This document shows, in pieces, positions 48,920 through 64,000 of a stretch of DNA of 64,000 nt. The translations under genes were made by a program, and so were the position numbers. Every line of letters begins with the position of its first letter. Position 1 is the first letter of the stretch. Source of the DNA: Cyanobacteria bacterium P01_F01_bin.150 (lineage in GTDB: Bacteria > Cyanobacteriota > Cyanobacteriia > CAKZMO01); contig JBCCYL010000014.1 of assembly GCA_039189765.1 (NCBI GenBank), positions 1 through 64,000 of the forward strand, written 5' to 3'. Below the pieces are notes generated by a model, which was not told the DNA's origin, did no database searches, and worked only from the letters and a program-made list of their open reading frames with translations.

Positions 48920-48929
48920 CGATTTGTGG

Positions 48930-48944
48930 GTGAATTTATTTCAT
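48930..48944. promoter_or_regulatory. Putative LysR box (T-N11-A)
   Basis: GTGAATTTATTTCAT dyad just upstream of the LysR start, in the divergent intergenic region. Confidence 0.45.
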
Positions 48945-49266
48945 CTTAATCCTGAATAAATTGAATTTGCAATCTTTTCTTATCTCTTGTTATTCTTGAA
49001 ATCAAGGGGATAAAACAGTTTCTCAATCGCTCAATAGCCTGTATAAAACTCATCTAAAGTTGCATCTCTAAGCAAACTCCTTGGGTATATCCCAACGAAA
49101 CAATCGGCGTTGCTGAATGCCGGGATGAGGGCGATTGAGGCTGCGACGAATTTTTCTGTTGCAATGACTGGAGTTTTTGAGGGGGGTGTTTATGCCAAAA
49201 TCACCTCAGATTCTACCAGAACCCGCAGCCTGGTCCCCTGCACCCTCTCCTTAGGAATTTGCAATC

Positions 49267-49920: not shown

Positions 49921-49927
49921 ATCGGTG

Positions 49928-50353
49928 ATGACAACTCAGCAAGATGATAAATCTGCCATTCAGGCGTTGATTAATTCACAGTTTGCTAGCTTGAGCTGGT
50001 CGGCTGACCAGCCAGCTCACTGGGCAGATTTTGAAACAGGTTTTGTGTCAGAAGCTCAGTTATTTCCTGCTGCAAGACCCGTCAAACCAATGACGGTTAA
50101 GAGTTTTAGAACTCGCATGGAAAAGCTAAGAACGGACGGCACGTTAACCAACTTCAAAGAAACACTTGGTCCCATCAAAGTTTGGGTGATCGGTCAAGTG
50201 GCGGTTGCGATCGCAGGGTGTGAAATGGTCGAAAATGAGCACACTATTACACGAGATATCAGTATATTTCTATTGGTTAAAGAGGAGGATACCTGGAGAA
50301 TTGCGGCTCAAGGATGGGATGTTGTTGAGGACTTCCAATCTATAGGACTTTGA
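49928..50353 (+). CDS. NTF2/SnoaL-like (DUF4440-like) protein
   Basis: DKSAIQALIN...VAVA...FLLVKEEDTWRIAAQGWD. Follows azoR. Confidence 0.75.
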   Translation: MTTQQDDKSAIQALINSQFASLSWSADQPAHWADFETGFVSEAQLFPAARPVKPMTVKSFRTRMEKLRTDGTLTNFKETLGPIKVWVIGQVAVAIAGCEMVENEHTITRDISIFLLVKEEDTWRIAAQGWDVVEDFQSIGL

Positions 50354-50364
50354 GTACAGATCTT

Positions 50365-50640
50365 ATAGCGATCGCCCGCAACCCTATCACCACTGCCAAT
50401 AAAGCTGCTTTCAGGAAGCGACGAGACCTTCAAGACATCACCCATTCAGCACAATCAGCAGGAGCGATCGCCTTCTTTGTCACATCCCAATGCTGCCATC
50501 AGATCGATCGCCCCTCTTGCGACTGTACGTGAGCGATCGCATTTCCTTCAATGATTACGCGTGAAATACAGGGGGAGTGGGGTGGATTATGGTGTGGAGG
50601 GGAGTAATCGATCGCCCCCTCAAAAATGGACTGAACCGCA
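50365..50640. repeat. HIP1-ladder non-coding repeat, copy 1
   Basis: HIP1 or near-HIP1 at 50368, 50464, 50504, 50533 and 50608. Aligns with copies 2-4. Confidence 0.9.
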
Positions 50641-50647
50641 GCATTAC

Positions 50648-51082
50648 TTAAAGGTGGTCTGTCTCAGTTACTGTTGCTCCGAACATCTTGGCGATCTGCT
50701 TGGTTGCGTCTAATCCGCCGGATGGAATGGCGAGCTGTTCATATTCGATTGTTCCGCTACCATCGTCATCCAAAGTTATTCGGACATAAGCGATTTCAGC
50801 GTTTTCGATAGCGTCTACCCAAGATTCAAATTCCCAGGGAGTCTTCAGCGTTGGATCTGTAAATCGTCTTTCTACTGGCGTGCTTTCCCATCGTTTCTGC
50901 CAGTCAAGGAGTTCCTCGGGAGTCGGATGCCAGAAGTTGGTTGCGACAATATCTCCCAGAATCGAGGCAATCTGATCGGCATCCAAACGTTCCTCGGCTT
51001 TTGCCGTTCGCACGTAGTCGAAGAAATTCGTCAACTGTCTGGCATTTTTTGCAGGCAAGTTCCTGAAGCGAACGTACGCCAT
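50648..51082 (-). CDS. Hypothetical protein (cassette-like)
   Basis: 144-aa ORF starting 13 bp after an eroded attC; PWEFESWVDAI and PSGG motifs. Confidence 0.7.
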   Translation of the reverse strand: MAYVRFRNLPAKNARQLTNFFDYVRTAKAEERLDADQIASILGDIVATNFWHPTPEELLDWQKRWESTPVERRFTDPTLKTPWEFESWVDAIENAEIAYVRITLDDDGSGTIEYEQLAIPSGGLDATKQIAKMFGATVTETDHL

Positions 51083-51095
51083 TTTGGATTCAATC

Positions 51096-51189
51096 CTTTA
51101 ATGTTTTTGAGCTTAGTAGACGGTCAAGGCGAGCAAACATAACAAGCATAACTTCGTAGTCCGTATCTGTTGCAATGAGGTTATTAGGC
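51096..51189 (-). mobile_element. Eroded attC site
   Basis: Minus strand GCCTAAT..ATTGCAACAGATACGG...CCGTCT..AAAAAC-ATTAAAG. It is 94 bp long, both core sites are one change from AAC/GTT, and stem pairing is partial. Confidence 0.4.
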
Positions 51190-51433
51190 ATCGCTAGTAC
51201 TACAAACAGCATTGCTGAAAGGTGCTCCCAGCCTTGACCAATATGTCTAAATTGGCGCGATCGCTCTTCTTGCGATTTCACGTTGGCAAGCCTATGTTGG
51301 CAAGCGCTAGACAGATCTATGCGCAACAATATATTGAGTGCTTATTTGGTCAGGCATCAATAGCGTTGGGAGACCAAGGGCTGAATGATAGCGTTCTTGT
51401 TCTAAGAAAGGATTGCTACCATAACCAGCTTCA

Positions 51434-51871
51434 TCAACCGCATTGCCGATGATTAGGATTTTGGGGGAGTTTAAGTTTGTCCAACGTATTTCTTCTATCC
51501 CAGAATGGAACAACAGCAATTATTGATGCTAGGTCATCGCCATTGAGCCACATCATGGTGACTGTCCGAATGCGATCAAGTTCGGCAGTCACAACACAGG
51601 CGTAGTCGCCAATGCCGAATACTCGACCAAGTAGAGTTTCCTTGCCATTGGAAGAGAGATGAACTTCCCAGCATTCTGGTTTTCCACGCCTAAGTCTTCC
51701 CCGCCAAATGAAATCAACAATCCGATCGTCACGCCGAATCAAGAAAAAACTCCAATGTTCGTTTGCTGTAATCGTTGCGCCATTGCCAACCAACTCTTTA
51801 AGAAACGTAATGAACTCAGGGCCAAACGACACCGCTGGAATTGGATTCGGAAATTCATCCGGCCATCGCAT
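51434..51871 (-). CDS. Hypothetical protein
   Basis: ORF from MRWPDEFP (ATG 51871), co-oriented with neighbours. Confidence 0.6.
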   Translation of the reverse strand: MRWPDEFPNPIPAVSFGPEFITFLKELVGNGATITANEHWSFFLIRRDDRIVDFIWRGRLRRGKPECWEVHLSSNGKETLLGRVFGIGDYACVVTAELDRIRTVTMMWLNGDDLASIIAVVPFWDRRNTLDKLKLPQNPNHRQCG

Positions 51872-51884
51872 GGGCTTATAGAAA

Positions 51885-53447
51885 TTATTCACTAACAGCA
51901 ACCCTTTCATTTGGGTAGTCGAATTCAATGACAGAATCGCTACCGACTTCTTGAAAGGAAAAGCGTTTTATAGAGTTTTGATAGTAATTTTGTGTATATT
52001 CTTGGAAAAACACTAAAACAATAATTTGGTATGCGTTTTCTTTGGATAGTTCTAACCTTCGGCCTCCTTTCCATCTAATATTTGGTTCTAGTATTTCATA
52101 GTCCAGCTCTGTTATTGGGCTAGAGTCTTCAGTGCTTGTAAACCAAAACCGAATTACATTACGGCCTGATTCAATGTCTGAAATGTAATGGACAAAGGGA
52201 TCGTTTCCAATACGAGATTCTTTCGGTGCCGGAGGGTTAACGTCTATAGTTGGGTCACCCACTTCTCCAGTTGCACCTTCTAAGGGTATTTTGGGTTCCT
52301 GAATCGTATAGAACTGATCACCGCCAATCCAGAGTTCATTATCAGAATGCCCCCAAATTGTATTTACGGAGAGAGAAGTCGCCCCTGAAACATTGATCCA
52401 TTCACCATTCCCATTAGACCAGAGAATTGTGCCCTGTAGCCCAACGACATAGATGGATTGAGGATTCAAGCCCCAAACAGCCGTGAGCTGTTGATTGTAC
52501 TTTAGTTGTCTGGTCCATTGACCATCGCCTTGGGAATAGAAAATAGACCCTAATCTGGTGACTGCATAGAATGCGCCTTGCCCGTTTCCCCAAATAGAGT
52601 CAAAGTCCTCTTGGGTATCTGACTCCTCTAGGACCCAAATACCACCTTGATTGCGGCGTATGATTTTACCTTTTTCACCCACCACAAATACGTTGTTTTG
52701 ATCACCACTGACCCCAAAAAAGTCAACGTCAACAGGGCTTGGCTCTTGAGTCCAGCTTCCCTCCCCGGGGGAAACTAAAATCGTTTGGTCAAATCCAACC
52801 GCAAAAATCTGTTGAGCACCTCCAGGAGATTCTCGTCCCCAAACTGCATTGAGAGCCTTGGTTACGGGAGTCGAATTTAGTTGCCATTGGGACTGACCCG
52901 GTTGGCGACTTAAAATGGTTCCTTTGCCGCCAACCGCATAAATTTTATGTTGGCGATCGCCCCAAATCCCAGAAAACCGTGGGCCATTAAACAGAGTTTG
53001 ACTCCACTGGCCCTGTTCACGGGACCATAACTGTTCCCAATTGGCAGAGGTAACAGTATGCTCATTCCCCCATAACCCCATAACGGGTTCCATATGGGCA
53101 GCAGATTCATGATGCCACTGTGTGCCATCCCAGTGCCAAATATCACCAAAGGTATAATAGCCTGGCGGTAAGTTGGCTGGAGGTTGCCTAACCGCTGGGA
53201 AGGGAGGCAAATTACACTGGAATTCTTCTGGGGCTATTGGAGGTTGTTGTAGGGGTGGAGCTACCGATGGTGTGGATTCAGGAGACTGTGGGCTGTGTTG
53301 TTTTACAGTGGATGATTTATTGAAGGGTTTCAAGATCCCTTTCAAGACTCTCCTTACAACCCAAATGGCTGCGCCAATAATGGCTAAAATGATTCCTAAA
53401 CCAATGCCAATAATGATTAGGCCAATAATTCCTTCTACCAACCTCAT
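51885..53447 (-). CDS. Membrane-anchored beta-propeller protein (WG-x-AVG repeats) with Pro-rich stalk
   Basis: N-terminal TM helix, Pro-rich linker, repeats like LNAVWG....IFAVG..GTIL. RBS GGAGG. Confidence 0.75.
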   Translation of the reverse strand: MRLVEGIIGLIIIGIGLGIILAIIGAAIWVVRRVLKGILKPFNKSSTVKQHSPQSPESTPSVAPPLQQPPIAPEEFQCNLPPFPAVRQPPANLPPGYYTFGDIWHWDGTQWHHESAAHMEPVMGLWGNEHTVTSANWEQLWSREQGQWSQTLFNGPRFSGIWGDRQHKIYAVGGKGTILSRQPGQSQWQLNSTPVTKALNAVWGRESPGGAQQIFAVGFDQTILVSPGEGSWTQEPSPVDVDFFGVSGDQNNVFVVGEKGKIIRRNQGGIWVLEESDTQEDFDSIWGNGQGAFYAVTRLGSIFYSQGDGQWTRQLKYNQQLTAVWGLNPQSIYVVGLQGTILWSNGNGEWINVSGATSLSVNTIWGHSDNELWIGGDQFYTIQEPKIPLEGATGEVGDPTIDVNPPAPKESRIGNDPFVHYISDIESGRNVIRFWFTSTEDSSPITELDYEILEPNIRWKGGRRLELSKENAYQIIVLVFFQEYTQNYYQNSIKRFSFQEVGSDSVIEFDYPNERVAVSE

Positions 53448-53641
53448 ACCTCCGATTTATTAACGTAATTGTAGTTTTCGATTTATGCAAGAAGCTTAAT
53501 CGACCATGGTAGCTAAATTTTGATAAATACCAACCCATTCCCTATTAAGATTATTAGTCAGTAATACTCTACAAATAAATGTTCGTGATGATAGTGACCA
53601 GATCACTTATCTGGAATTTGGGTTCTGGTCACTGCATTATG

Positions 53642-53944
53642 TCATCGCCATTCGATTGCCCCGCTTAAGAAGTCAAGGACTGGCATCATAATTGCTGTTC
53701 TTGTGCCATCTGGATTTTCAATGAACCATTCATCAAACAGTTCATCTTCGAAGGGTGGATCTTCGGTAATGCCGTTTTCGGTTTTCGATTCGCGGCCAAT
53801 CCATTCAAGGAAGTCGCGGATTTGCGGTTCCATGTCTGCGGCGACGAATTTGCCGCAAGCCCATGGGAAATCTGCCCAGTCCACGTCGGTAATGGTTGCG
53901 ATCAATTGATTGCCCCAGAGTAAGCGATGAGTGTTGTGTAACAT
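53642..53944 (-). CDS. Hypothetical protein
   Basis: 100-aa ORF (DFPWACG...IEWR) followed by a 10-bp inverted repeat at 53593-53633. Confidence 0.65.
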   Translation of the reverse strand: MLHNTHRLLWGNQLIATITDVDWADFPWACGKFVAADMEPQIRDFLEWIGRESKTENGITEDPPFEDELFDEWFIENPDGTRTAIMMPVLDFLSGAIEWR

Positions 53945-53945
53945 T

Positions 53946-54407
53946 TTACGCTGGCGACTTCAAAATTGTCTCGACTTGTTCACGGATCTGTGGGGAGCAA
54001 CTCAAGATTGATAATTCTATAGTTGCACAGCCTCTCCTTATCATATCGAAGAAGAATGCTTCCGACTGATCAACGGATTGAAATGCCTGCTCTCCATCAT
54101 CCCAATTAGGGGACAAGTTGAATTCATAACGGATGGACTGTCCGTTATGTTCGACAATAAGCCATCTTGAAGCATCATTCGACGCCATAAACTTGGCAAG
54201 ACATGTTTCCATCTGAAATAATTCGAGAAAATGTGTTAGCGGCACCGTTAGGAGTTTCGATCTTTCCAGTACGACGGCATCTAATTCGTCAGCAAGGTAG
54301 ACATCATCATGGTGGAGTATAGCGATCTTATAGACAGACTCCTCAACATCCTCCCAGCTCTCTTCAGCAGGATAGTCAGAGCAGCTTGTGATGGAAATCC
54401 AAGACAC
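53946..54407 (-). CDS. Hypothetical protein
   Basis: 153-aa acidic ORF with a GTG start abutting the end of repeat copy 2. Confidence 0.6.
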   Translation of the reverse strand: MSWISITSCSDYPAEESWEDVEESVYKIAILHHDDVYLADELDAVVLERSKLLTVPLTHFLELFQMETCLAKFMASNDASRWLIVEHNGQSIRYEFNLSPNWDDGEQAFQSVDQSEAFFFDMIRRGCATIELSILSCSPQIREQVETILKSPA

Positions 54408-54412
54408 TAAAC

Positions 54413-54658
54413 CGCCTTCCCTGCTACATATCGATATTGTTATCAGCGCGATCGCCCCTCTTGCAACTTCACGTGGGCGATCGCATTTCCTTCAGTTATT
54501 ACCAGCGAGATAAAGGGGGGAGATTGGCTTGCGGCAGGGAAGACGCGATCGCCTCCTCCAAAATAGACTGAACGGAGGCGTTGGGTTACCTTTAATTGCA
54601 CATATCGCTTATTCGCTCTGACCTCCGCGCTGTGAAGGCCAACCTTGCGTATTTGGGA
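54413..54658. repeat. HIP1-ladder non-coding repeat, copy 2
   Basis: HIP1 at 54448, 54477 and 54545. Abuts the attC R' site at 54659. Confidence 0.9.
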
Positions 54659-54747
54659 AGATAACGCTTTGGTTCACCTGTGGCAGACAGCCTCACGATT
54701 CTAACCAGCGACTATCTGCGTCATCAGGTGCAACCGGATAGTTAGGC
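54659..54747 (-). mobile_element. Integron attC site
   Basis: Minus strand: GCCTAAC-TATCC-GGTT[G]CACCTG...GCAGATAG / CTGTCTGC..CAGGTGAACC-AAAGC-GTTATCT. R''/R' cores, L boxes with an extrahelical G, 89 bp, 23 bp after the upstream gene's stop. Confidence 0.88.
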
Positions 54748-54770
54748 TGCAATCACTAGAACATCTGTGA

Positions 54771-55157
54771 TTATTTGGTTGCATTGACGACTGCCAAAGT
54801 ATCAATATACTGCCTAAATTTCACTACCTTGCCATCTTTTAATGTCCAAATGGAAGCCGTCGGTGCCCTCATCGTCTGACCAGTTGCTTTATAGGTGCCA
54901 CTATCAGTCCCAAGGGTCACTACAACATCACCTGCATCGATGAATTGATCCACATGGGCCGTGAAGTTATCCCACTCTGCACCAATCTTAGCGAAGACTC
55001 CATTCATGACGGCTTCGTATCCTTTGAAAATACCACCGTAAGGAATTCCATCTGATTCAATCCATTCTACAGAGGGATCCAACAATGCACATACTGAATC
55101 ACTATCACCTTCCGCAAATGCTTTATAAAGGCGCTTAATGACATCAACGTTGCTCAT
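54771..55157 (-). CDS. SnoaL/ketosteroid-isomerase-like NTF2 protein (gene cassette)
   Basis: NVDVIKRLYKAFAEGD..LDP.VEW...PYGG...WTLKDGKVVKFRQYIDT. RBS GGAG; followed by attC. Confidence 0.88.
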   Translation of the reverse strand: MSNVDVIKRLYKAFAEGDSDSVCALLDPSVEWIESDGIPYGGIFKGYEAVMNGVFAKIGAEWDNFTAHVDQFIDAGDVVVTLGTDSGTYKATGQTMRAPTASIWTLKDGKVVKFRQYIDTLAVVNATK

Positions 55158-55229
55158 GAATTATCTCCCCATTCATTTGACAATATATCGTTCATTCTCT
55201 CTGTGTAGTACCTCACTAATACTTCTGCT

Positions 55230-55310
55230 GTTGGGTAAAGGAGTGAGTTTTAGATATGTTCTTCACCCTTCCCTCAGAACCGTAAGTACAACTTTCACTG
55301 TATACCACTC
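55230..55310 (-). mobile_element. Group II intron 3' remnant (domains V-VI)
   Basis: Minus strand GAGTGGTATACAGTGAAAGTTGTACTTACGGTTCTGAGGGAAGGG resembles DV (GAGCCG..GAAA..CGTACGGTTC). It is followed by a DVI-like hairpin ending TTACCCAAC. The catalytic AGC is altered and there is no RT ORF. Confidence 0.7.
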
Positions 55311-55344
55311 AAGCAATATCTTGAAATAGCGTAACCTTTCCGTG

Positions 55345-55545
55345 GATCATGATGAAAACGTCAACAAAGCGGTTTGCTAAAGATTCTGGGGGCCAAGAAT
55401 CGTCCGGCACAATTGCTTCAGCAATTGCCAGACTCATTTGTGTATCGTCGGTGTATTGTCTAGGGCGAGTACCATGTTTCGGATGCTGGATATAACTTGA
55501 TAAATTGTTGTACTTCAGGATTGATGCCGAAGCATAACTCCTACC
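55345..55545 (-). pseudogene. ADP-ribosylglycohydrolase N-terminal fragment
   Basis: YTDDTQMSLAIAEAI...LANRFV motif; truncated on both sides. Confidence 0.7.
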
Positions 55546-55621
55546 GAACAAAACAAACCTATGTGCAGTGAATTTATCGTCACATAATTTTCCACAATAA
55601 ATTTCACTGCATTTGCAACGT

Positions 55622-55900
55622 CTTCAACACAATCAGCAAGGGCGATCGCATTCTTTGCCACACACCGATGCTGTCATCAACGCGATCGCCCTTCTTTCAA
55701 CTTTACGTAGGCGATCGCATTTCCTTCAATTATTACCAGCGAGATCAAGGGGGTTGGATTCTGGTGTGGGGAGGAGGGAGCGATCGCCTACTCAAAAATG
55801 GTCTGAATGGACACATTGCTTTACCTAAAAATTGCACATATCGTCTATGCGCTCTGGCCTCCGTGCTGTGAAGAGTCGCTTAGCATATTTTTATTTTTGA
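55622..55900. repeat. HIP1-ladder non-coding repeat, copy 3
   Basis: HIP1 at 55642, 55682, 55711 and 55780. Abuts the attC R' site at 55901. Confidence 0.9.
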
Positions 55901-55999
55901 GAATAACGCTAAGGATCATCGGCATCATGAGCAAATTATGACCGATTCTTGCTTGAAACGCGACTGCCCATGATGTCCGAATGCATCCGATGGTTGGGT
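55901..55999 (-). mobile_element. Integron attC site
   Basis: Minus strand: ACCCAAC-CATC-GGAT[G]CAT[T]CGG[A]CATCATGGGCAG / TTGCTCATGATG-CCG-ATGATCC-TTAGC-GTTATTC. It is 99 bp long with extrahelical bases on one arm. Confidence 0.88.
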
Positions 56000-56060
56000 G
56001 GGCGACGAATCAGTCCTGGCCTAGCTCCCGTCCACCGAAGGACGGTTTCCACCCACATTT

Positions 56061-57071
56061 CTATAGGTCATTCAGGATTTCCTGAAGGTCACTTGCAGGG
56101 TATGGGGTGGTGAGGTTTTCCATGAGTTGATGGTAGAAGGCTCCCAGTCTCATGACCAGAGGAACTCTTCTTTTGAGATAGGAGCAAATGGTAACAGGCA
56201 CAGCTTCGACTGAACCGTGGTCAGCATCAGTCAATTCTTGCAGTGCTTGTCGCCAATCTTCCCTCGAATTATAGTGGTTGACAATCGTATAAACGAGGCT
56301 ATTAAGAGCGGTGCAAGTATCAAAGTTCTGATGCTCGTCGAAGAACTGTCGTTCGCCAGAATCAAGTTGGAACTTGTTTGAGAGTACAAGTCCGTAGTCT
56401 GCGAGAAAAAGCTGTTTGCCGTCGGTGAGGATGTTATCGAAGTGAGCATCCATATGAATAAAGCCTTGAGAGTTGATGAACGACAGTATTTCAGTCAAAC
56501 TTGATTCAAGTTTTTCAACAATCGCAATAGGATCGGAGCAATGCAACAACTGCTCTCGTAGCCATTGATTGAGAGTATAAGGGCAATGTTCCAGGAACAT
56601 CACCACAGAATGAGTTGCTTCGGTAATCGAGGCGATCCGTCGGTGGATCGCTTCGCAGTTTTCCCAAAGCCGTATATTTATCCTGTCATCGTAGTTAGTG
56701 TGGACGATCGGTAAAACGCGCCAGTGATGTAGCAATGGAAATTGAGTACATTGCCTGGATATCACCCACATGTTTGCAAGAAGGTGGGCCTTGATTTCTC
56801 GCCAAGCGCCAAAACCACAGCTACCGATACGATACTGATAATAGGTTGGAAGTTGAAAGACGTTAGCGGTCGATTGATAATTTTGGAGCTGCATTTCAAA
56901 GTTTGACAAAGGTACCAGTTTGACAAAAACATTGACGCCGCCACACCGAAAGGCAACCGTTCCGTATCCTATCTCTTGTATTTGTGGATCGTTTAGTAAA
57001 CGCAGCAGGTCTTCGTCACTCCAAGATTGGAGTTCATCAGCAATGCCTGCATGGGATTCAACGCGAATCAT
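56061..57071 (-). CDS. Protein-kinase-like fold protein (gene cassette)
   Basis: GYG, VFVK.VP, HMDAHFDNIL and LADYGL (catalytic loop and DFG equivalents). Followed by attC. Confidence 0.8.
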   Translation of the reverse strand: MIRVESHAGIADELQSWSDEDLLRLLNDPQIQEIGYGTVAFRCGGVNVFVKLVPLSNFEMQLQNYQSTANVFQLPTYYQYRIGSCGFGAWREIKAHLLANMWVISRQCTQFPLLHHWRVLPIVHTNYDDRINIRLWENCEAIHRRIASITEATHSVVMFLEHCPYTLNQWLREQLLHCSDPIAIVEKLESSLTEILSFINSQGFIHMDAHFDNILTDGKQLFLADYGLVLSNKFQLDSGERQFFDEHQNFDTCTALNSLVYTIVNHYNSREDWRQALQELTDADHGSVEAVPVTICSYLKRRVPLVMRLGAFYHQLMENLTTPYPASDLQEILNDL

Positions 57072-57511
57072 TTAATTCAGGTGTTTAATCAAAGCACGAT
57101 CATGCCGTTGACTTTCCTCGGTTTGGGTGTGCTGGGGGCAGCGTTTGCCTTTGGCGTCTTCGACGAGGGCGGGCAGAGCCGCCCGTTGGGGAGACGGTAG
57201 CCGCAACGCTTCAACCCTTTAGCACCCCTTGTCTTAGGACGTATCGGCAATTCCACTGTACAAGATGTGACCAGACTTAAGGTAATAATAGGAGTTATAG
57301 CGATCACTTCAATGTGAATCGTGTTTCAATACAGGCGATCGCTAGTGACTAATGGGGAATCTACAAGGAAATATTTTTTTGACAAGAGGATTTTTAGTCC
57401 AAATCGCACGGAACTCTTTTCTATGGCATGATCCCCAATAGTAATTTTTTGGGGTGATTTTGTTGCGTTTACCCTGAATACATTGGAAATAACCTGAATC
57501 AAACAAACCTA

Positions 57512-59353
57512 GTGAACAGTCCCTCAAACTCGTCAAACCGTTTACAACGCAACCTGAGCCGCTATTCTGCGGCAGGAGTTTTTTGTATCAGTTTAGTGGT
57601 GGCATTGGTTAGTGTCATTCCCCTCTACAACAAGCTTAAAACAGCTCAGGAGCAAGACCTCCAGGCTAAACTGAGTAACCGAACGTTGGCGGCTGAACAG
57701 GTGCAGCAAAGTAAGATTGAGGTTGCTGAACAAGTCACAAGTCGGACCTTTGCCCGAAAGATGCTTTCTGACTATGTCCAGGGCGAGGCAAGCTTGACTG
57801 AGTTGCGAGAACTTAGTTTATTTGATTTAGAAGATGCGATAAATCAAAGCGATTCACTAGTGGGTGTTAGTCGCTTCGATCACACTAACCAACTCCTGGT
57901 TCATGTCGGTGTTGACTCTCCCCTGGCACTCTCAGACATTCTCAAAGAGGAGACTGACGAGTCCATAACGGTTGGCCCAATCACGATTGATAATCACCCC
58001 CATCTCTTGGTGAGTAGCCCCATTTTTTCTGAGCAGCAAGAGCGGATTGGCCGAGATATTGCTGTGTTTAGAATGTTCAATATGGAAAGGCTCGTTGCGG
58101 AATACAGCGGTCTGGGGGAGACAGGCGAAATGCTCTTGGCCCAAGGGAAAGGGGACACCTTAGCGTTGTTCTTTCCTTTGCGAAACGGCTCACAGGTGCT
58201 GCCGGAACGCTTGGTGCCTTTACTCAAAGATGCGATCGCCCAAGATGCAGCAGAAATTGAACATTACGACAGTCAGGTCATTGCCTTTCAGGCCTTGCCG
58301 AATACTGGCTGGATCATTGCGGTGCAGATGGAGCGTCAGGAACTGTATGGTGCAGTGAACCGAGATTTGTTTTTTGTCGGTCTGGCAGTATTTGCGGTCA
58401 GCACGATCGCCACAGTTGGGTTGGTTTTTGTGTTGCGTCCCTTGATTGGACGGGTTACGGATGCTGATGAATTAGAGAAAGAAGTGCTTGCCAAGACAAT
58501 AGCCTTTGAGGAACTCAAACAAATCCAAATTCAATTAGTCCAGGCCGAAAAAATGTCAAGCCTGGGTCAATTAGTGGCAGGCGTTGCTCATGAGATCAAC
58601 AACCCAGTTGGGTTCTTGAAAGGGAATATTCAACCTGCCCAGGACTATGTGCAAGATTTACTCGGACTTATTGACTTGTATCAAGAAAAAGTGCCCAATC
58701 CTGATGCAGACATTAAAGATGAAATTGAAGAGATTGATTTGGAGTTTGTGCGAGAAGATTTACCCAATATTATCAACTCAATGAATGCAGGGGTAGATCG
58801 CATTCGTAATATCAGTGATGGTTTGCGTATCTTCTCTCGTCAGGATCAAGATCATAAGACAGCATTTGATCTCCATGAGGGCATTGATAGTACACTACTC
58901 ATCCTTAAGCATCGAACCAAAGCCAATGAACAGCGGCCAGAAGTTGAAGTCATCAAGAACTATGGTGAGCTGCCGGAAGTGCAATGCTTTCCAGGTCAAT
59001 TAAATCAGGTGTTTATGAATGTCTTGGCCAATGATATTGATGCCTTTGATGAGACGAATCGAGGCAAAACATTCCAGGAGATTAAAGCTGATCCCAATAT
59101 AATTATGATTACCACTTTAATGGTTGATAAACAGGTGCAAATTCAGATCCAAGACAATGCCTGTGGGATGAAGCCGGAAACGATTGAACGAATTTTTGAG
59201 CAGGGATTTACCACCAAAGAAGTTGGCAAAGGAACCGGTTTGGGGATGGCGATCGCGCATCAAATCATCACGGAGAAGCATAGTGGCTCGATCGAATGCA
59301 GCTCAGAGCTTGGCAAGGGAACAATCTTCACAATCACATTCCCCATTGTCTAG
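57512..59353 (+). CDS. Membrane sensor histidine kinase (Cache-like periplasmic domain)
   Basis: Two TM helices, QAEKMSSLGQLVAGVAHEINNP, LNQVFMN, FTTK.VGKGTGLG. No partner response regulator adjacent. Confidence 0.92.
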   Translation: MNSPSNSSNRLQRNLSRYSAAGVFCISLVVALVSVIPLYNKLKTAQEQDLQAKLSNRTLAAEQVQQSKIEVAEQVTSRTFARKMLSDYVQGEASLTELRELSLFDLEDAINQSDSLVGVSRFDHTNQLLVHVGVDSPLALSDILKEETDESITVGPITIDNHPHLLVSSPIFSEQQERIGRDIAVFRMFNMERLVAEYSGLGETGEMLLAQGKGDTLALFFPLRNGSQVLPERLVPLLKDAIAQDAAEIEHYDSQVIAFQALPNTGWIIAVQMERQELYGAVNRDLFFVGLAVFAVSTIATVGLVFVLRPLIGRVTDADELEKEVLAKTIAFEELKQIQIQLVQAEKMSSLGQLVAGVAHEINNPVGFLKGNIQPAQDYVQDLLGLIDLYQEKVPNPDADIKDEIEEIDLEFVREDLPNIINSMNAGVDRIRNISDGLRIFSRQDQDHKTAFDLHEGIDSTLLILKHRTKANEQRPEVEVIKNYGELPEVQCFPGQLNQVFMNVLANDIDAFDETNRGKTFQEIKADPNIIMITTLMVDKQVQIQIQDNACGMKPETIERIFEQGFTTKEVGKGTGLGMAIAHQIITEKHSGSIECSSELGKGTIFTITFPIV

Positions 59354-59354
59354 A

Positions 59355-59677
59355 CATCACCATCCTCAGCACAACAGCAGAGAATCCTCGTAAAGCCACA
59401 ATCGATCTTCATCCGTAAGACACCAGTTCGGACTCAACAACCAAGATCGAGCCTCACCGATCGACGCCACACAAGGCGATCGCCCACCGCCTTATCATCG
59501 CTGCTAATAAATCTGCTCTCAGGGCGCGACGAGACCTTAGAGATATTAACATTCAGCACAACCAGCAAGGGCGATCGCCTTCTTTGCCACACACCGATAC
59601 TGTCATCAGCGCGATCGCCCCTCTTCCAACTTCACGTAGGCGATCGCATTTCCTTCAATTATTACCAGCGAGATAAC
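59355..59677. repeat. HIP1-ladder non-coding repeat, copy 4
   Basis: HIP1 at 59476, 59571, 59611 and 59640. Ends at GAGATAAC (GTTATCT on the minus strand). Confidence 0.9.
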
Positions 59678-59702
59678 GTCAATTCCAGTATTACTAGATG
59701 AT

Positions 59703-60656
59703 TCATAATTTCACAAATTTTTCTCCCGTTTGGTTCGTTGTTATAATGCCAATAACAATCAAAAACATACTAAAAATATGAACAGGCACAATTGCCTCGC
59801 CTAGAAAAATCCATGCAAAAATCCCACTGAAGATGGGAATTAGGTAATAGGTTAAAGCTGTACGAGAAGGACCAATTAAATCAATCGCTTTATTCCATGC
59901 AAGAAATGCAACTACTGATGAGAGAACTCCCACATAAATTAAGGCAAGTATAATGGAAGCATTAAAGTTAACAGGATGATAAATTAAACATTCAAGTGCG
60001 TAAAAAGGTGCTAAAAATAGTAGTCCTAAACAAAACGTGGAAAAAGTGAAAGTTATCATCCGTATAGCACGAGGCTTACGCTTCACAAGCATAGTGTAAA
60101 TGGCAAAAATTAATGCTGCTGCTAGCATGTAGAGGTCACCAATTGCGAAAGAAGCACTCAACAAATTACCTAGGGAACCCTCTGTAATTAACAGAACAAC
60201 ACCAACCAAGACAATTAATATGCCTCTGGTCTGCTTTACAGAAAAGGCTTCATTATAAAAGAGCCGAGACATAATCACAACAAAAATAGGTGAAGCAGCA
60301 GCAATTAAAGCCAAGTTAATTGCTTGAGATGTATGGCCAGCCATATATATCAAAGTATTAAAAACGGTGACACCTAATAATGCAGATATAGACAAATAGG
60401 GAAGATTTATTTGCAGTGATTTCCAGTCTTTGATTGTTGTCCAGATAGCAAATGGCCCTAAAGATACAGTCGCAATTGTCCATCGCCAAAATGCTAGACC
60501 TACAGGCAGGATACTCTCGTGTAAAGCTCTGGCAATAATGAAGTTACCTGCCCAAATCAGAGTAGTAACTATTGCTAAGAGATATCCAATGAGTAAAGAT
60601 TTAAGCGGCACTTGGCTTTGCATCTGCTTAGATACTTTTAAGATTTTCTGTTCCAT
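59703..60656 (-). CDS. DMT/EamA family exporter
   Basis: IWAGNFIIAR, LAFWRW, two EamA repeats, IGPSRTA..YYLIPIF...FLGE. Confidence 0.92.
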   Translation of the reverse strand: MEQKILKVSKQMQSQVPLKSLLIGYLLAIVTTLIWAGNFIIARALHESILPVGLAFWRWTIATVSLGPFAIWTTIKDWKSLQINLPYLSISALLGVTVFNTLIYMAGHTSQAINLALIAAASPIFVVIMSRLFYNEAFSVKQTRGILIVLVGVVLLITEGSLGNLLSASFAIGDLYMLAAALIFAIYTMLVKRKPRAIRMITFTFSTFCLGLLFLAPFYALECLIYHPVNFNASIILALIYVGVLSSVVAFLAWNKAIDLIGPSRTALTYYLIPIFSGIFAWIFLGEAIVPVHIFSMFLIVIGIITTNQTGEKFVKL

Positions 60657-61372
60657 TCGGTCCTGTCACTTTGTCGTAGGAAATTGATAACCCATCTTGC
60701 AATTAACTGAGCATCATCTTCATCCTCTAGAGAGCGTAAACCAATCAACAGCGTCTCTTCTTCGATAACACCTTTTCGACTCAGCATTAATGCTTGCGTA
60801 TAAGCCTTTCGGTGTTCTGGATGTCCTTGAAAAGTTAATACAGAAGTGCCGTATTTCAAAACACTATAGGGACAAAAGGTATTACCTGCGATTAGTTTAG
60901 CATTTTCGGGTAAATTAACTACTTGATCTTGATGACTAACTAGTAGTTTAAAGGTCTTAGCAAAAGGTAGCATCCAAGTTTCCTCTTCATATACCTTGTT
61001 CTCTGCCAGCCCAATTCCCCAGCCTTTAGAAGACTTAGATACTAATCCGCCAAGGGTTTGTGCAATTATTTGGTGGCCAAAACAAATCCCTATTATTTTT
61101 TTTGTGGATTGCGTATAGAGATTACGAATAAACTGTGAGAGTGTATATACCCAAGGAGTTTGATCATAGGCACTCGCTTTACTGCCAGTAATTATATAAG
61201 CATCACACTCAGCAATGTCTTGTGGATAAATTTCCTGTACTACATCGTAGCGTCTAAATAAAAGCTCCTTTTCTGCCTGATATAACCATGATTCAACCAT
61301 GTCACCATAGCTACCAAACTCACCGATAAAATCTTGCGCTACTTGATCAGCTTCCAGTATTCCTATCCGCAT
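60638..61372 (-). CDS. Class I glutamine amidotransferase-like protein
   Basis: IITGS, GICFGHQ (Cys) and QGHPE (His-Glu) triad. Confidence 0.9.
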   Translation of the reverse strand: MRIGILEADQVAQDFIGEFGSYGDMVESWLYQAEKELLFRRYDVVQEIYPQDIAECDAYIITGSKASAYDQTPWVYTLSQFIRNLYTQSTKKIIGICFGHQIIAQTLGGLVSKSSKGWGIGLAENKVYEEETWMLPFAKTFKLLVSHQDQVVNLPENAKLIAGNTFCPYSVLKYGTSVLTFQGHPEHRKAYTQALMLSRKGVIEEETLLIGLRSLEDEDDAQLIARWVINFLRQSDRTEWNRKS

Positions 61373-61412
61373 ATAATTTCTTATAACTATCACAAAAGTA
61401 TTTTTCTTCTAT

Positions 61413-62249
61413 CTATTGTGCTGGAATATGAGGCACTTTTTGTAGCCCCAGAGACTTTCTTATCCACAGGAAAAAGTCATGATGAGGTTTGCGGCTACGA
61501 TGTCTATACATTACACTATTGCCTACTTGAGGATGGCATTGGATAGAGTGATTTCCAGTTTCAAACTCTTCAATAATTTTGAATAGCTTAAGCATTGCTA
61601 AATGTAGTGCACGACAATATAAATGCTCATCATTATCATGTGGATATATTGGTGGCTTCACAATTTCAATAATTTCACCACCATCCAGTTGAGGTGAAAC
61701 GATATGCACTGTTGCAGCAACCTTAGCATAGTCTGCTTTATAGTAAGCAAAAAAAATACAGTGATTACCTCGATAATCAGGTAAATACCCTCCATGCACA
61801 TTTATCATCAAGTTAGCTGCGTTAATAACTTGCTTAGGAATATACATAGTGCCACATACTATGGTGATGTCGGGTTCAAAGGAATTAATAGCATCTATTG
61901 TTTCTTGAGAGCCTACCCAATCTACAGATGTTAGATTTATATCCTGATCTGTACTATGCATAAGTGGTGAAAAATAATCCCATCGATAGGAACTTTTACC
62001 ACTCAGCTTTTGGCGCTTAATATGCCAGTATCGATATGCCCAATCAACATACTTTGCTTTCTGCCAAAGCCGTTGATGTTGGCTCTTACCTGGCTCGATA
62101 ATAGCGCCTACCAGATTAAACCGGGCTGAAAGCTGTGATACTAAATACTGTTGTTGAGGATCATCAGAGCACAACGCTAGAATACGCAGGCGATCATCGC
62201 CATTTTTGATAAAAGAGTAACTATTGTTTTCAGATTTTTCAATAGACAT
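61413..62249 (-). CDS. N10-formyl-THF-dependent formyltransferase family protein
   Basis: INVHGGYLPDYRG, TVH.V...LDGG.II. Confidence 0.85.
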   Translation of the reverse strand: MSIEKSENNSYSFIKNGDDRLRILALCSDDPQQQYLVSQLSARFNLVGAIIEPGKSQHQRLWQKAKYVDWAYRYWHIKRQKLSGKSSYRWDYFSPLMHSTDQDINLTSVDWVGSQETIDAINSFEPDITIVCGTMYIPKQVINAANLMINVHGGYLPDYRGNHCIFFAYYKADYAKVAATVHIVSPQLDGGEIIEIVKPPIYPHDNDEHLYCRALHLAMLKLFKIIEEFETGNHSIQCHPQVGNSVMYRHRSRKPHHDFFLWIRKSLGLQKVPHIPAQ

Positions 62250-62251
62250 AC

Positions 62252-63721
62252 TTAGGTTTTGGAATAAAAAGAAGTAAAACGATCTGGATGATAGAGTTGA
62301 TGCATGGGATGAAATTCATTGCGAAGTGCTGCTAGCACTGCACTAGCAATTGCGGGTGCTTGTGTAAAGCCTCCGGTATTGTGGCCCCCTGTAATAATTA
62401 GTTTTCCATGATTTACACTCTCAATAGTTTCAAAGACACCTAGGCTTGTAGATGTCCATGGACGTATACAGTATCGACGGCTAGTTTTTAATAACTCCTT
62501 TTCTCTTGCCAGCTCATAGGCATTAGGAAAGTAGTGCTTAATTGAGTCTTCAATGCTGAGGTACATCGCTTCGAGTTGCTCAGGAATAATATTTTCAGGA
62601 TCAAGACCTGTATAGCCATAACCTGAACCAAAAATTAGAACTTCTTCTCCGTGAGACGTTGTAGCTAAGGTGACATTCATATCTTCAGTAATGTGCCCCT
62701 TACGAGCAATCTTTAATGAATGCCTTAGCTTAGGTGATAAATTCGGAATAGTGATCCAGCCACCTAATACACCCTGGATTTTGTTTTCTGCTTGTGTTTC
62801 TTTAAGCATTTTATTTCCATACACACCAGGGGAAATAACATAGTGATCGGATTCAATCATTTGATCACTTAACATCAAGCCAGTAACATTAGCATCACTA
62901 TCTCGAATGATTGCTGTAATTCTAGAGTTCCAAAAACATTTAACATTAGCCTTTTCTAAATAATTCAGCAATTTGCTAATAAATTTATGAATATTCAGAG
63001 TAAAACCAATTACTTCCATCGCACCAGCGACTAATCCATTTTTACAGGCATCTGTTAATGCAGGGTGTTCTTGTATCAGCTCATTGGCTGTTAAAACACG
63101 CTTCAGAGACCCCAGATTCTTATGACGCTTAACACTTTGCCAGTAATGCAACTCATCTGAGTAAAGGCGCAAAATGTCTGCTTTTAGCTCTACATCTTCA
63201 AATAGCTGAGCAGACCCCTGGATCAGGTTTTCCCATAATTGTTGACTTTCATAATTAAAAGAAAAAATGTCTTTGTTATAAACATTTGCTAACCAAGGAG
63301 GCACTGTTTCATATTCATGTATCCAAGTTCTCTCGAAAGTGGACATACTGCTTGTCTTACCAATTACCCATCCATGATTCGATACACTGTGTCTAAATAA
63401 GCTGTTAAAATTGGAGGCATCGGTAAACTTCTTATCGTTATAGTTGTCAGCTTCTGTAAGGGTGAACATCCTTGCATCCCCGCCACTACGACTACACCCA
63501 TACTTTGACCAATGTTCACCCTCCCTAGGATCTGGTGATGCATCATAAATTGTGATAGCATACCCCGCTTCAAGCAAGTAGTAGGCACTTATAAGGTTAA
63601 CAATACCTGCACCAATCAGCGCAATAGTTTCTTTTGATTTTAGTGAAATACTGGTTTTACTAGCAACTCCCGTATTGCTTTGAGTAAGTTTTTTTGTGCT
63701 AATCTGTTCGGCTATAACCAA
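62252..63721 (-). CDS. FAD-dependent oxidoreductase (DAO/amino-acid dehydrogenase-like)
   Basis: IALIGAGIVNL.SAYYL...ITIYD, CIRPWT, TGGHNTGGFTQAP. Confidence 0.82.
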   Translation of the reverse strand: MVIAEQISTKKLTQSNTGVASKTSISLKSKETIALIGAGIVNLISAYYLLEAGYAITIYDASPDPREGEHWSKYGCSRSGGDARMFTLTEADNYNDKKFTDASNFNSLFRHSVSNHGWVIGKTSSMSTFERTWIHEYETVPPWLANVYNKDIFSFNYESQQLWENLIQGSAQLFEDVELKADILRLYSDELHYWQSVKRHKNLGSLKRVLTANELIQEHPALTDACKNGLVAGAMEVIGFTLNIHKFISKLLNYLEKANVKCFWNSRITAIIRDSDANVTGLMLSDQMIESDHYVISPGVYGNKMLKETQAENKIQGVLGGWITIPNLSPKLRHSLKIARKGHITEDMNVTLATTSHGEEVLIFGSGYGYTGLDPENIIPEQLEAMYLSIEDSIKHYFPNAYELAREKELLKTSRRYCIRPWTSTSLGVFETIESVNHGKLIITGGHNTGGFTQAPAIASAVLAALRNEFHPMHQLYHPDRFTSFYSKT

Positions 63722-63733
63722 TAAATTAATATC

Positions 63734-64000
63734 TTAATGAATCGACTCTACTGGCAATACAGTGTATACCGGAACTCCAGCGATCCAAGATGGTTGCTCT
63801 CCTTGCTGTTCATTATGTTTTTGGATAATAAATTGCGCCGAATCAGAAGGCATTTCAGATAGCCAGCATCTCACAACTTCTTCATCAGGCAACTCTTGAG
63901 TGATCAGAATATTTGGTCTGTTCTCAGTCAATACACTAGTTATGAAACGGCTTCCTTTTGTTAGTAAGTCGGGTCGATAGATAATGTTATTGCTAAGAAT
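63734..64000 (-). CDS. C-terminal part of a gene that starts beyond the window
   Basis: The frame of ORF 63734-63931 stays open to base 64000 (ILSNNIIYRPDLLTKGSRFITSVLTENRP...). Confidence 0.7.
   Translation of the reverse strand: MLSNNIIYRPDLLTKGSRFITSVLTENRPNILITQELPDEEVVRCWLSEMPSDSAQFIIQKHNEQQGEQPSWIAGVPVYTVLPVESIH

What the first reader, a model, noticed from the sequence alone, without database searches (positions are those of the whole stretch)
50365..59677. Non-coding repeat with a fixed HIP1 ladder, fused to attC recombination points in a cyanobacterial cassette array
Seen: four co-oriented, diverged copies of a ~250-320 bp non-coding sequence (50365, 54413, 55622, 59355) keep HIP1 sites at the same spacings (95/96, 40, 29, 68-75 bp). 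On the minus strand, copies 2 and 3 begin exactly at the G|TT crossover of two different attC sites. Copy 4 is also cut at a GTTATCT, and copy 2 breaks at a HIP1 position right before a gene start. Known: sequence after G|TT belongs to the next cassette or target site, ORF-less cassettes exist, and HIP1 has been linked to recombination and methylation in cyanobacteria. Inference: this is a host-adapted ORF-less cassette or landing pad that captures foreign attC cassettes. It may act as promoter, ncRNA or HIP1-mediated shuffling spacer. I do not recognise it as a described element.
Basis: partly seen in the sequence, partly recalled or inferred. Interest (0 to 1): 0.8.

Follow-up and report, generated by a model that had tools for sequence, protein, structure and literature searches.

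The report
Repeated spacer in decayed integron array
The repeat is a non-coding spacer that sits between captured gene cassettes and broken copies of the capture machinery in a worn-out cyanobacterial gene-capture element, and it suggests that a very common cyanobacterial eight-base palindrome serves as a joining point when such elements are duplicated.

Summary
The repeat (X, about 250-360 nt) has 7 co-oriented copies in the 10.6-Mb genome. All lie on this contig between 50.3 and 70.5 kb; four are in the window. No copy was found elsewhere in the collections searched.

X has no conserved reading frame, no Pfam or Rfam match, and no covariation. Its few promoter- and terminator-like matches are not shared between copies.

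Read in the cassette direction (minus strand), 4 of 7 copies start exactly at the G|TT crossover of four different attC hairpins. The array is therefore a chain of decayed mini-platforms: attI, cassette block, attC, X, intI stub, attI, and so on. No intact intI remains in the genome.

A same-genus genome has the same layout with an unrelated HIP1-rich leader. There the leader is joined, within one HIP1 octamer, to the sequence downstream of an intact intI.

Best reading: X is the cassette-side flank of attI, multiplied together with the platform. HIP1 sites persist (27 of 30 intact) and mark several junctions.

Verdict: a new variant of a known kind, of moderate interest.

The parts
50368..50650 (-). 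X copy 1. It is the terminal and most divergent copy. It lacks the first ~75 nt of X and abuts the stop codon of ORF 50648-51082. Its far end is at HIP1 50368, 12 nt after the stop of the plus-strand gene 49751-50353.
54413..54664 (-). X copy 2. It begins at the G|TT crossover (54665|54664). Homology ends where the other copies carry the second HIP1 site, just before ORF 53946-54407.
54657..54751 (-). attC-type hairpin (R'' GCCTAAC, R' GTTATCT) after the SnoaL-like cassette ORF 54771-55157.
   Evidence: 85.1 bits, but it is a seed of the model; arm pairing is reached by 9 of 500 shuffles; compensatory pairs.
55623..55906 (-). X copy 3. It begins at the G|TT crossover (55907|55906). Its far end is fused to an intI stub.
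55494..55607 (+). 3'-truncated integron-integrase stub (about codons 15-52). Its junction with X is the same as in the off-window copy at 64.4-64.6 kb.
   Evidence: tblastn E 8.7e-8; blastn 84% over 63 nt to the 75-kb intI remnant. Alignment.
55899..56003 (-). attC-type hairpin (R'' ACCCAAC, R' GTTATTC) after the kinase-like ORF 56061-57071.
   Evidence: 74.8 bits, a seed of the model; arm pairing is reached by 1 of 500 shuffles.
59476..59676 (-). X copy 4. Its near end is cut at an internal GTTATCT (59671-59677), 27 nt after the EamA-family gene stop. Its far end is at HIP1 59476.
59351..59381 (-). 30-nt X-like fragment directly after the stop of the histidine kinase gene 57512-59353.
   Evidence: score 37, shuffle maximum 25.
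55230..55312 (-). Group II intron domain V/VI remnant. It lies where the attI of the 55-kb platform would be expected.
   Evidence: RF00029, 37.9 bits (gathering score 40), E 1.8e-4.
50648..54407 (-). Cassette block B1: six minus-strand ORFs with no recognisable attC between them, bounded by X copy 2 and X copy 1.
59703..64000 (-). Cassette block B4: EamA transporter, glutamine amidotransferase, formyltransferase-like, FAD oxidoreductase and a small ORF. It runs off the window up to the attI at C14 64132.

Best explanation
X is the non-coding sequence that lay on the cassette side of an attI crossover point, the target side of G|TT. It was multiplied inside this locus together with the platform next to it.

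**Layout.** The repeated module, read in the cassette direction, is G|TTATCT, then X, then a 3'-truncated intI stub, then attI (six or so 41-nt repeats), then G|TT. Cassette blocks were later loaded at the individual attI sites. As a result each X now follows the attC of the preceding block exactly at G|TT. Later deletions and replacements removed the stub and attI from four copies.

**Role of X.** X shows no sign of a function of its own. It has no conserved frame, no RNA covariation and no promoter or terminator shared between copies. Its five HIP1 sites are kept by whatever maintains HIP1 genome-wide.

**Role of HIP1.** HIP1 octamers also act as junction points, by microhomology exchange, when modules are duplicated or trimmed.

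**Shown:** the copy number and locus restriction, the G|TT starts, the X-stub fusions, the attI repeats, the decayed intI, the better retention of HIP1, and the HIP1-bounded junctions in the sister genome.

**Inferred:** that X was the original attI flank, that multiplication came before cassette loading, and that HIP1 microhomology drove the duplications.
For: 1. All 7 copies in the genome lie in one 20-kb stretch and are co-oriented. None was found in 60 relatives, in two pattern scans of 185,579 species genomes, in one metagenome scan, in plasmids or phages, or as a predicted protein.

2. Of the 7 copies, 4 start at CG|TTAT after four unrelated hairpins. A fifth (copy 6) follows the 5' half of an attC.

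3. The hairpins behave as attC sites. In the alignment, 9 of 11 predicted pairs keep pairing through changes on both sides. All 5 arm pairs fold better than shuffles, reached by 0-18 of 500. A model built from them finds non-seed sites in other genomes: G001:C46 at 45.4 bits (E 2.6e-8), two sites in G013, and two on G001:C368.

4. Of the 7 copies, 3 are fused to intI 5' fragments, and at the 64-kb and 70-kb copies attI follows. Copies 3 and 5 share the same junction.

5. The array head at 75 kb keeps the longest intI remnant: profile positions 1-107 and 288-314. It is 75% identical over 77 aa and 87% over 30 aa to an intact same-genus IntI. The far end of the array is X copy 1, next to ordinary genes.

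6. G001:C46 has the same layout: attI, ORF, attC, G|TTAGAC, a 159-nt leader with 4 HIP1 sites, 135 nt homologous to the region just after the stop codon of the intact intI on G001:C803, a 13-codon stub, then attI. In one search the leader copies match query positions 1-159 and the intI flank matches 152-285, so they overlap only in the HIP1 octamer.

7. HIP1 coincides with borders of X copies 1, 4 and 2 and with the border of the duplicated attI-stub unit on G000:C261.

8. There is no coding or RNA signal, and X is not derived from intI.
Against: 1. The attI-stub parts of the modules in this array are not each other's closest relatives. The 75-kb copy is 88-89% identical to copies on contigs C17 and C261, but only about 74-81% to the 70-kb copy and 65-76% to the 64-kb copy. 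Simple local amplification from the array head therefore does not fit without extra events.

2. Two different X-stub junctions exist (codon ~33 and codon ~52). These need independent deletions or duplications.

3. No empty module with attI directly abutting X was found, and no intact intI remains in this genome to show what its 3' flank was.

4. X has no detectable similarity to the G001 leader or to the G001 intI flank. The comparison is one of layout only.

5. On G001:C368 the leader sits in front of ordinary cassette ORFs with no stub or attI. That also fits a leader belonging to cassettes rather than to platforms.

6. X carries 4-5 HIP1 sites in about 280 nt, a density reached from only 182 of 11,422 HIP1 sites in the genome. 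A purely passive flank does not explain this.

7. The genome is a metagenome bin. An independent assembly of the same run breaks inside the X cores, so the order of blocks rests on one assembler.
Confidence: 0.55

Rival explanations
1. The module TTATCT-X-stub-attI...G is itself a cassette-like mobile unit that uses attI in place of attC (an attI-type cassette). An integrase supplied in trans excises it by attC x attI recombination and re-inserts it, seeding new landing pads within arrays and at other loci.
For: - Both outer borders of the complete modules (copies 5 and 7) are crossover points, with different sequence outside each copy.
- attI-stub modules are dispersed. There are at least 12 in this genome. 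DNA matches occur in 9 of 17 family genomes, up to 19 in G001.
- Modules in this array are closer to modules on other contigs than to each other.
- Cassettes ending in attI or delta-attI are documented and recombine in class 1 and 2 integrons (PMC12901181; abstract and section 5 read).
Against: - The sequences after attI's G do not match what the upstream attC's R'' box would predict for a simple insertion (read).
- Stub modules on other contigs do not carry X. The C261 unit is bounded by HIP1, not by G|TT.
- No circular or empty-site form could be looked for.
- No intact IntI exists in this genome.
Confidence: 0.2
2. X, like the G001 leader, is a functional array-specific leader at the 5' end of cassettes. 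It could be a promoter or insulator, an antisense RNA template read from the intI promoter, or a homology block that lets RecA shuffle cassettes once IntI is lost. Selection would keep it for that role.
For: - Two unrelated HIP1-rich leaders in two congeneric genomes both start at the crossover.
- On G001:C368 the leader directly precedes cassette ORFs.
- The HIP1 density is unusual.
- A nested pair of HIP1-anchored inverted repeats recurs in the two copies examined.
- A perfect TATAAT upstream of intI is conserved in the attI modules (visible in the alignment). It would transcribe stub plus X on the plus strand.
Against: - X outside its HIP1 sites is only 87% identical to consensus. Pairwise identity is 72-92%, similar to the adjacent pseudogene stubs.
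- No promoter or terminator motif is shared by the copies.
- There is no covariation.
- Three copies face the 3' ends of convergent genes rather than preceding an ORF.
Confidence: 0.15
3. The pattern is produced or distorted by metagenome binning or assembly. Blocks from related strains could have been stitched together at the shared X cores.
For: Contigs from an independent assembly of the same run end inside the X cores (54465-54505, 55716-55735, 59645-59663). Their depths differ: 41, 40, 44 and 32.
Against: - The copies differ by 8-28% and have unique flanks.
- The shared identical stretches are only about 20-40 nt, shorter than reads.
- Each X junction itself lies inside a single independent contig (table 8).
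- The same layout is seen in another genome.
Confidence: 0.05

Closest known systems
Cluster of attC sites lacking an integrase (CALIN) next to an intI pseudogene, or decayed sedentary chromosomal integron (Cury et al. 2016, PMC4889954, passages read; Nemergut et al. 2008, PMC2426708, passages read)
   Same: It has a minus-strand array of cassettes with attC hairpins, a divergent intI remnant with a frameshift and internal deletion, and an attI-like region upstream of it. No functional integrase remains in the genome.
   Different: It has not one platform but at least four intI/attI remnants in series within 25 kb, each preceded by the same non-coding repeat. Only 5-6 recognisable attCs lie in 25 kb. 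Several blocks are multi-gene and lack attC.
[quoted passage not shown] 2026, PMC12901181; abstract and section 5 read)
   Same: The architecture is attC, cargo, then a complete or partial attI inside a cassette array. That arrangement is shown experimentally to be recombination-competent in class 1 and 2 systems.
   Different: Here the cargo is a non-coding HIP1-rich spacer plus an integrase stub, and the attI is about 330 nt with 41-nt repeats. The host is a cyanobacterium, and no recombination was tested.
Array-specific homogeneous attC repeats of sedentary integrons, such as Vibrio VCR/VXR (PMC13638679, search listing only)
   Same: A sequence specific to one array recurs at cassette boundaries.
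   Different: In Vibrio the homogeneous repeat is the attC hairpin itself. Here the hairpins are heterogeneous, and the conserved part lies just beyond the crossover.
HIP1 (GCGATCGC) biology: conservation under selection (Xu, Lawrence and Durand 2018, PMC5861425, abstract read). HIP1-promoted excision (Robinson et al. 1997) and plasmid recombination (Akiyama et al. 1998) were seen only as titles in the reference list of PMC4390886.
   Same: HIP1 octamers in X are retained far better than neighbouring bases, and several rearrangement borders fall on HIP1 sites.
   Different: The setting is a paralogous non-coding repeat and integron platform modules. I found no description of that setting in the papers searched.

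Membership tests
Integron (complete) | Intact integron-type tyrosine recombinase gene (intI with the IntI-specific insertion) | tested here: not met
   searched TIGR02249 in the whole genome. The best match is 109.4 bits against a cut-off of 265. The C14 75-kb remnant covers profile positions 1-45, 44-107 and 288-314 only. One search shows a deletion of about residues 117-296 relative to an intact same-genus IntI.
Integron (complete) | attI site next to the intI start, with the crossover at G|TT | tested here: met
   at least 8 modules share a left border at ...TAATAAAT(A/T)G|TTAG..., with unrelated sequence beyond it; 41-nt tandem units, 4.3 copies, at C14 74723-74898. Binding by IntI was not tested.
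CALIN / cassette array | At least two attC sites on one strand within 4 kb, each a hairpin with R''/R' boxes (RYYYAAC ... GTTRRRY) | tested here: met
   Five hairpins lie on the minus strand at 54.7, 56.0, 64.9, 67.9 and 70.5 kb, plus a weak one at 66.1 kb (E 0.44). A model built from them finds non-seed sites in two other genomes. IntegronFinder's own attC model was not available.
ORF-less gene cassette | Starts at TT of a crossover and ends with its own attC | tested here: not met
   The start criterion is met in 4 of 7 copies. No attC lies inside or at the end of X. Instead X runs into an intI stub (followed by attI in two of those three copies), into ORFs, or into convergent genes.
attI-type (delta-attI) cassette | Cargo bounded upstream by an attC or attI crossover and downstream by a complete or partial attI | tested here: met
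   Copies 5 and 7 have the layout attC G|TT, X, stub, attI, G|TT. Copy 3 lost its attI, and 4 copies lack both stub and attI.
attI-type (delta-attI) cassette | Excision and insertion by the integrase | not testable with these tools
   This needs a recombination assay or population long reads.
MITE or insertion-sequence remnant | Terminal inverted repeats, target duplications, dispersed copies, or transposase homology | tested here: not met
   All copies sit in one locus. The only inverted repeats are HIP1-anchored internal ones. There is no Pfam match to any X ORF and no protein homologue.
Structured non-coding RNA | Conserved secondary structure with compensatory changes, or a match to a described family | tested here: not met
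   no Rfam match in X at E up to 1; covariation term +2.49, and 2 of 29 pairs have a double change; z-scores -1.5 and -2.3. Only 7 related sequences were available, so power is low.

The most novel reading that the evidence does not exclude
In this cyanobacterial family, integron platforms may propagate as modules: a HIP1-rich leader, an intI remnant and attI. They would spread by integrase-mediated attC x attI exchange, by HIP1-octamer microhomology exchange, or both. One integrase could then serve many dispersed landing pads. The HIP1-rich leader would give every array a host-type homology handle that keeps cassette blocks exchangeable after the integrase has died. This would be a second, HIP1-based route of cassette-array remodelling, and possibly a way in which ordinary genes without attC enter arrays.
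Probability: 0.2. Interest if true: 0.75.

Novelty: new variant of a known kind. Interest (0 to 1): 0.5.

Why it matters
Integron surveys sort elements into three classes: complete integrons, integrases without cassettes, and orphan attC clusters. This locus shows a fourth state: a chain of decayed mini-platforms inside one array.

Related genomes suggest this state is common in one cyanobacterial family. attI/intI-stub DNA occurs in 9 of 17 genomes, with up to 19 matches in one genome.

The HIP1-bounded junctions give HIP1 a concrete, testable role as a recombination joint. The function of HIP1 has been open for decades.

The locus also shows how multi-gene blocks without attC can sit inside an array. 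This bears on the unsolved question of how cassettes and arrays are built and remodelled.

Tried and rejected
- **Generic attC scan.** A scan for YAAC...GTTR with forced pairing and a fold-energy cut gave 25 candidates on the minus strand and 24 on the plus strand. It was non-specific and was dropped.
- **Whole-hairpin fold z-scores.** Only 1 of 5 attCs stood out. These were replaced by arm-duplex tests. The first run had a wrong 3' end for the 56.0-kb site, and one search is the corrected run.
- **X as a decayed continuation of intI.** Rejected. DNA and six-frame scores are at shuffle level, and the control stub scores 94 and 115.
- **X as a gene remnant.** No Pfam match for 7 ORFs at E up to 1. 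One 82-aa ORF finds only itself among 5.8 billion protein clusters.
- **X elsewhere.**
  - 60 relatives gave only matches of 34 nt or less.
  - Two exact-pattern scans of species genomes gave 0 loci and 1 locus.
  - One metagenome scan gave 32 loci, all matching 37 nt or less by blastn.
  - Plasmids and phages gave nothing.
  - The exact-pattern scans would miss diverged copies.
- **Left flank of the array in relatives.** The flank (48000-50360) has no DNA match in 5 relatives, so the ancestral empty site could not be seen.
- **Expression.** No RNA holder is listed. The only run holding the stretch is a DNA run that may be the source of the bin.
- **Depth differences.** Independent contigs differ in depth (32 against 41-44). 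This is too coarse to read as a deletion polymorphism.
- **Earlier scan notes.** Nothing on this genome or on this sequence.
- **Literature.** Searches for tandem integrons, multiple attI or truncated intI inside arrays gave no description of this layout. These were phrase searches of open-access text only.

Full report
**1. The observation**

The repeat is real. The repeat finder on the window gives a 123-nt core in four co-oriented copies (50445, 54389, 55623, 59552; 74-100% identity). It also gives two longer shared blocks, 50368/59476 and 54594/55830.

The window is the first 64 kb of a 98.8-kb contig (C14) of a 10.6-Mb, 350-contig genome. blastn of the four copies against the whole genome returns 7 hits per query, all on C14 between 50340 and 70472 and all on one strand. 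Three further copies therefore lie just outside the window, at about 64602-64861, 69076-69372 and 70113-70470. I call the repeat X and number the copies 1 to 7 by coordinate.

HIP1 (GCGATCGC) occurs 61 times in the window, against 0.6 expected from shuffles. In the 7-copy alignment, 27 of 30 alignable HIP1 octamers are intact, where about 9.9 would be expected if they diverged like the other columns. Identity to consensus is 0.988 in HIP1 columns and 0.871 elsewhere.

Copy 4 proper starts at HIP1 59476.

**2. What X is not**

- *Not coding.* No frame is open across the copies, and the longest ORFs fall in different frames and strands. Seven such ORFs have no Pfam match at E up to 1. One 82-aa ORF finds only itself among 5.8 billion protein clusters.
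- *Not a known or evident RNA.* Rfam at E up to 1 finds nothing in X. RNAalifold gives a positive (penalising) covariation term, and its stems are HIP1 pairing with HIP1. Single-copy fold z-scores are -1.5 and -2.3.
- *No shared promoter or terminator.* Promoter- and terminator-like matches in the region are no more numerous than in shuffles, and none is shared between copies.
- *Not a transposable element.* All copies lie in one locus, and the only inverted repeats are internal HIP1-anchored ones.
- *Not a decayed continuation of intI*.
- *Not found elsewhere.* X was absent from 60 relatives, two pattern scans of species genomes, one metagenome scan, and plasmids and phages. The exact-pattern scans would miss diverged copies.

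**3. The setting is an integron-type array**

The ORFs between the copies mostly lie on the minus strand. Read on that strand, copies 2, 3, 5 and 7 begin at CG|TTATCT or CG|TTATTC directly after four unrelated hairpins. Each hairpin starts with an R''-type box: GCCTAAC, ACCCAAC, ACATAAC or TTCTAAC. A fifth hairpin of the same kind precedes a multicopper-oxidase gene at 67.9 kb.

Three results support these as attC sites:
- In their alignment, 9 of 11 predicted pairs keep pairing through changes on both sides.
- All five arm pairs fold better than shuffles, reached by 0-18 of 500.
- A covariance model built from the five finds non-seed sites in other genomes: G001:C46 at 45.4 bits (E 2.6e-8), two in G013, and two on G001:C368.

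On C14 itself the model finds only the five seeds plus three weak matches, the best of which, and the only one inside the array, is at 66.1 kb (E 0.44). So 4 of the 5 clear attCs are the ones that abut X. Copy 6 follows the 5' half of an attC, and copy 1 abuts an ORF stop. Both lack the first ~75 nt of X. Copy 4 is joined at an internal TTATCT.

**4.

On the plus strand, copies 3, 5 and 7 are directly preceded by 5' fragments of an integron-integrase gene, running to about codon 52, 52 and 33 respectively. At the 64-kb and 70-kb copies, attI precedes the stub. It is an AT-rich region of about 330 nt built of 41-nt units, each with GCCTAAT...GATTAGG.

The most complete remnant is at C14 74672-75414. 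It covers profile positions 1-107 and 288-314 of TIGR02249. It is 75% identical over 77 aa and 87% over 30 aa to an intact 324-aa IntI of a same-genus genome, with residues of about 117-296 deleted. No intact intI exists in this genome: the best match is 109 bits against a cut-off of 265.

In the cassette direction the region reads as follows:

- intI remnant and attI at 75 kb
- three HBL-family-like genes
- attC | X7
- stub and partial attI at 70 kb
- ORF149
- half attC, then X6
- a PepSY gene on the opposite strand
- attC | multicopper oxidase
- weak attC | APH-family kinase
- attC | X5
- stub and attI at 64 kb
- a five-gene block
- X4, joined at an internal GTTATCT
- a histidine kinase on the opposite strand
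- a kinase-like ORF
- attC | X3
- stub, with attI replaced by a group II intron remnant and an ADP-ribosylglycohydrolase fragment
- a SnoaL-like ORF
- attC | X2, cut at a HIP1 site
- six ORFs
- X1
- ordinary genes (LysR regulator, flavodoxin-like reductase)

**5. The comparison that explains the layout**

DNA of the attI-stub module is multi-copy. There are at least 12 places in this genome. Matches occur in 9 of 17 genomes of the family, 19 of them in the same-genus genome G001. TIGR02249 matches above the family cut-off occur in 5 of the 17 genomes; full-length uninterrupted copies are in G001 and G007.

On G001:C46 the layout seen around X recurs with an unrelated sequence:
- attI
- one ORF
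- attC
- G|TTAGAC
- a 159-nt leader with four HIP1 sites
- 135 nt that are about 90% identical to the region just after the stop codon of the intact intI on G001:C803
- 13 nt
- a 13-codon stub
- attI

In one search the other leader copies match query positions 1-159, 2-159 and 81-160, while the intI flank matches 152-285. The two segments overlap only in one HIP1 octamer. The other end of the intI-flank segment is also a HIP1 site.

On G001:C368 two leader copies each start at an attC R' box. After the same HIP1 site they are followed by ordinary cassette ORFs, with no stub or attI.

In the present genome, X borders fall on HIP1 in copies 1 and 4 (first site) and copy 2 (second site). The duplicated 726-nt attI-stub unit on contig C261 also begins at a HIP1 site.

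**6. Best explanation**

X is the sequence that lay on the cassette side of an attI crossover. It was multiplied with the neighbouring platform, so the module is G|TT, X, intI stub, attI, G|TT.

Cassette blocks were loaded at the separate attI sites. That puts an attC in front of each X exactly at G|TT, as established integron mechanics predict for the sequence on the target side of the crossover.

Later deletions, several ending at HIP1 sites, removed the stub and attI from four copies.

HIP1 retention in X agrees with the reported genome-wide conservation of HIP1 sites within and between genes (PMC5861425, abstract). HIP1 as a junction agrees with older reports of HIP1-promoted excision and plasmid recombination. 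Of those I saw only the titles, in the reference list of PMC4390886.

I put this reading at 0.55.

**7. What speaks against it, and the rivals**

- The attI-stub parts within this array are not each other's nearest relatives. The 75-kb copy is 88-89% identical to copies on C17 and C261, but only 65-81% to those at 70 and 64 kb. That alignment is short and noisy.
- Two X-stub junction types exist.
- No empty attI|X junction and no intact intI are available here.
- X shares no sequence with the G001 leader or intI flank, so the parallel is one of layout.
- The G001:C368 copies fit a cassette leader as well as a platform flank.

The main rival (0.2) is that the module is an attI-type cassette moved by an integrase in trans. 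This is a known kind of architecture in class 1 and 2 integrons (PMC12901181, abstract and section 5).

A functional leader or homology handle (0.15) cannot be excluded. X holds 4-5 HIP1 sites in about 280 nt, a density reached from only 182 of 11,422 HIP1 sites in the genome.

An assembly artefact is unlikely (0.05) but not excluded. The genome comes from a marine metagenome run. Independent contigs of that run end within the X cores, although each junction itself lies inside one contig.

**8. Novelty and verdict**

Decayed chromosomal integrons and orphan attC clusters with intI pseudogenes are known (PMC4889954, PMC2426708). Cassettes ending in attI are also known (PMC12901181).

Four open-access text searches did not turn up the following:
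- a chain of several attI/stub platforms within one array
- an array-specific HIP1-rich leader beginning at the crossover
- HIP1 octamers as the joints between leader, intI flank and stub

Earlier notes of this scan record multi-copy integrase stubs in another cyanobacterial element and an attI-like repeat array in a decayed cyanobacterial integron. I treated these as leads only.

I class the finding as a new variant of a known kind, with an interest score of about 0.5.

Noticed in passing
L001 11061-14404 (contig C14 71061-74404), minus strand: Three tandem paralogous genes (257, 378 and 400 aa) match the Bacillus_HBL family of alpha-helical pore-forming toxin components (E 1e-7 to 4e-17). 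They form the first block after the 75-kb attI and end with a single attC.
   Followed up: no
window 55230-55312 (-) and 55309-55551 (-): A group II intron domain V/VI remnant (37.9 bits, just under the gathering score of 40) lies next to an 80-aa N-terminal fragment of an ADP-ribosylglycohydrolase. Together they occupy the place where the attI of the 55-kb platform should be.
   Followed up: partly
L001 15515-15630 (contig C14 75515-75630): An element of about 110 nt just downstream of the intI remnant is repeated on dozens of contigs at 70-87% identity. It is probably a miniature dispersed repeat unrelated to X.
   Followed up: no
L001 10745-10785 (contig C14 70745-70785): A motif of about 40 nt is present on more than 40 contigs at 87-97% identity. 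It is another short dispersed repeat.
   Followed up: no
window 40800-45225 (-): A 1474-aa ORF contains at least 9 tandem 126-nt units (42-aa period) at 60-83% identity. This looks like a WD40/beta-propeller-type repeat protein.
   Followed up: no
window 59645-64000 compared with 49648-59663: The independent contig that spans X4 to X5 has a mean depth of 32.3. The three neighbouring contigs have 40-44. This could reflect a sub-population lacking that block, or simply a coverage bias.
   Followed up: no
L003 (G000 contig C74 34397-34687, minus strand): A second, more divergent intI remnant covers profile positions 1-97 at 109 bits, with two in-frame stops. It is about 52-60% identical to the C14 remnant at protein level.
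   Followed up: no
L080 722-1365 (G001 contig C368), minus strand: A two-gene cassette (91 and 123 aa, overlapping by 4 nt) sits between two leader copies. The next cassette ORF starts MVAVVDKIPISFNEF. Neither was scanned against a family library, so a toxin-antitoxin or nuclease nature is only a guess.
   Followed up: no
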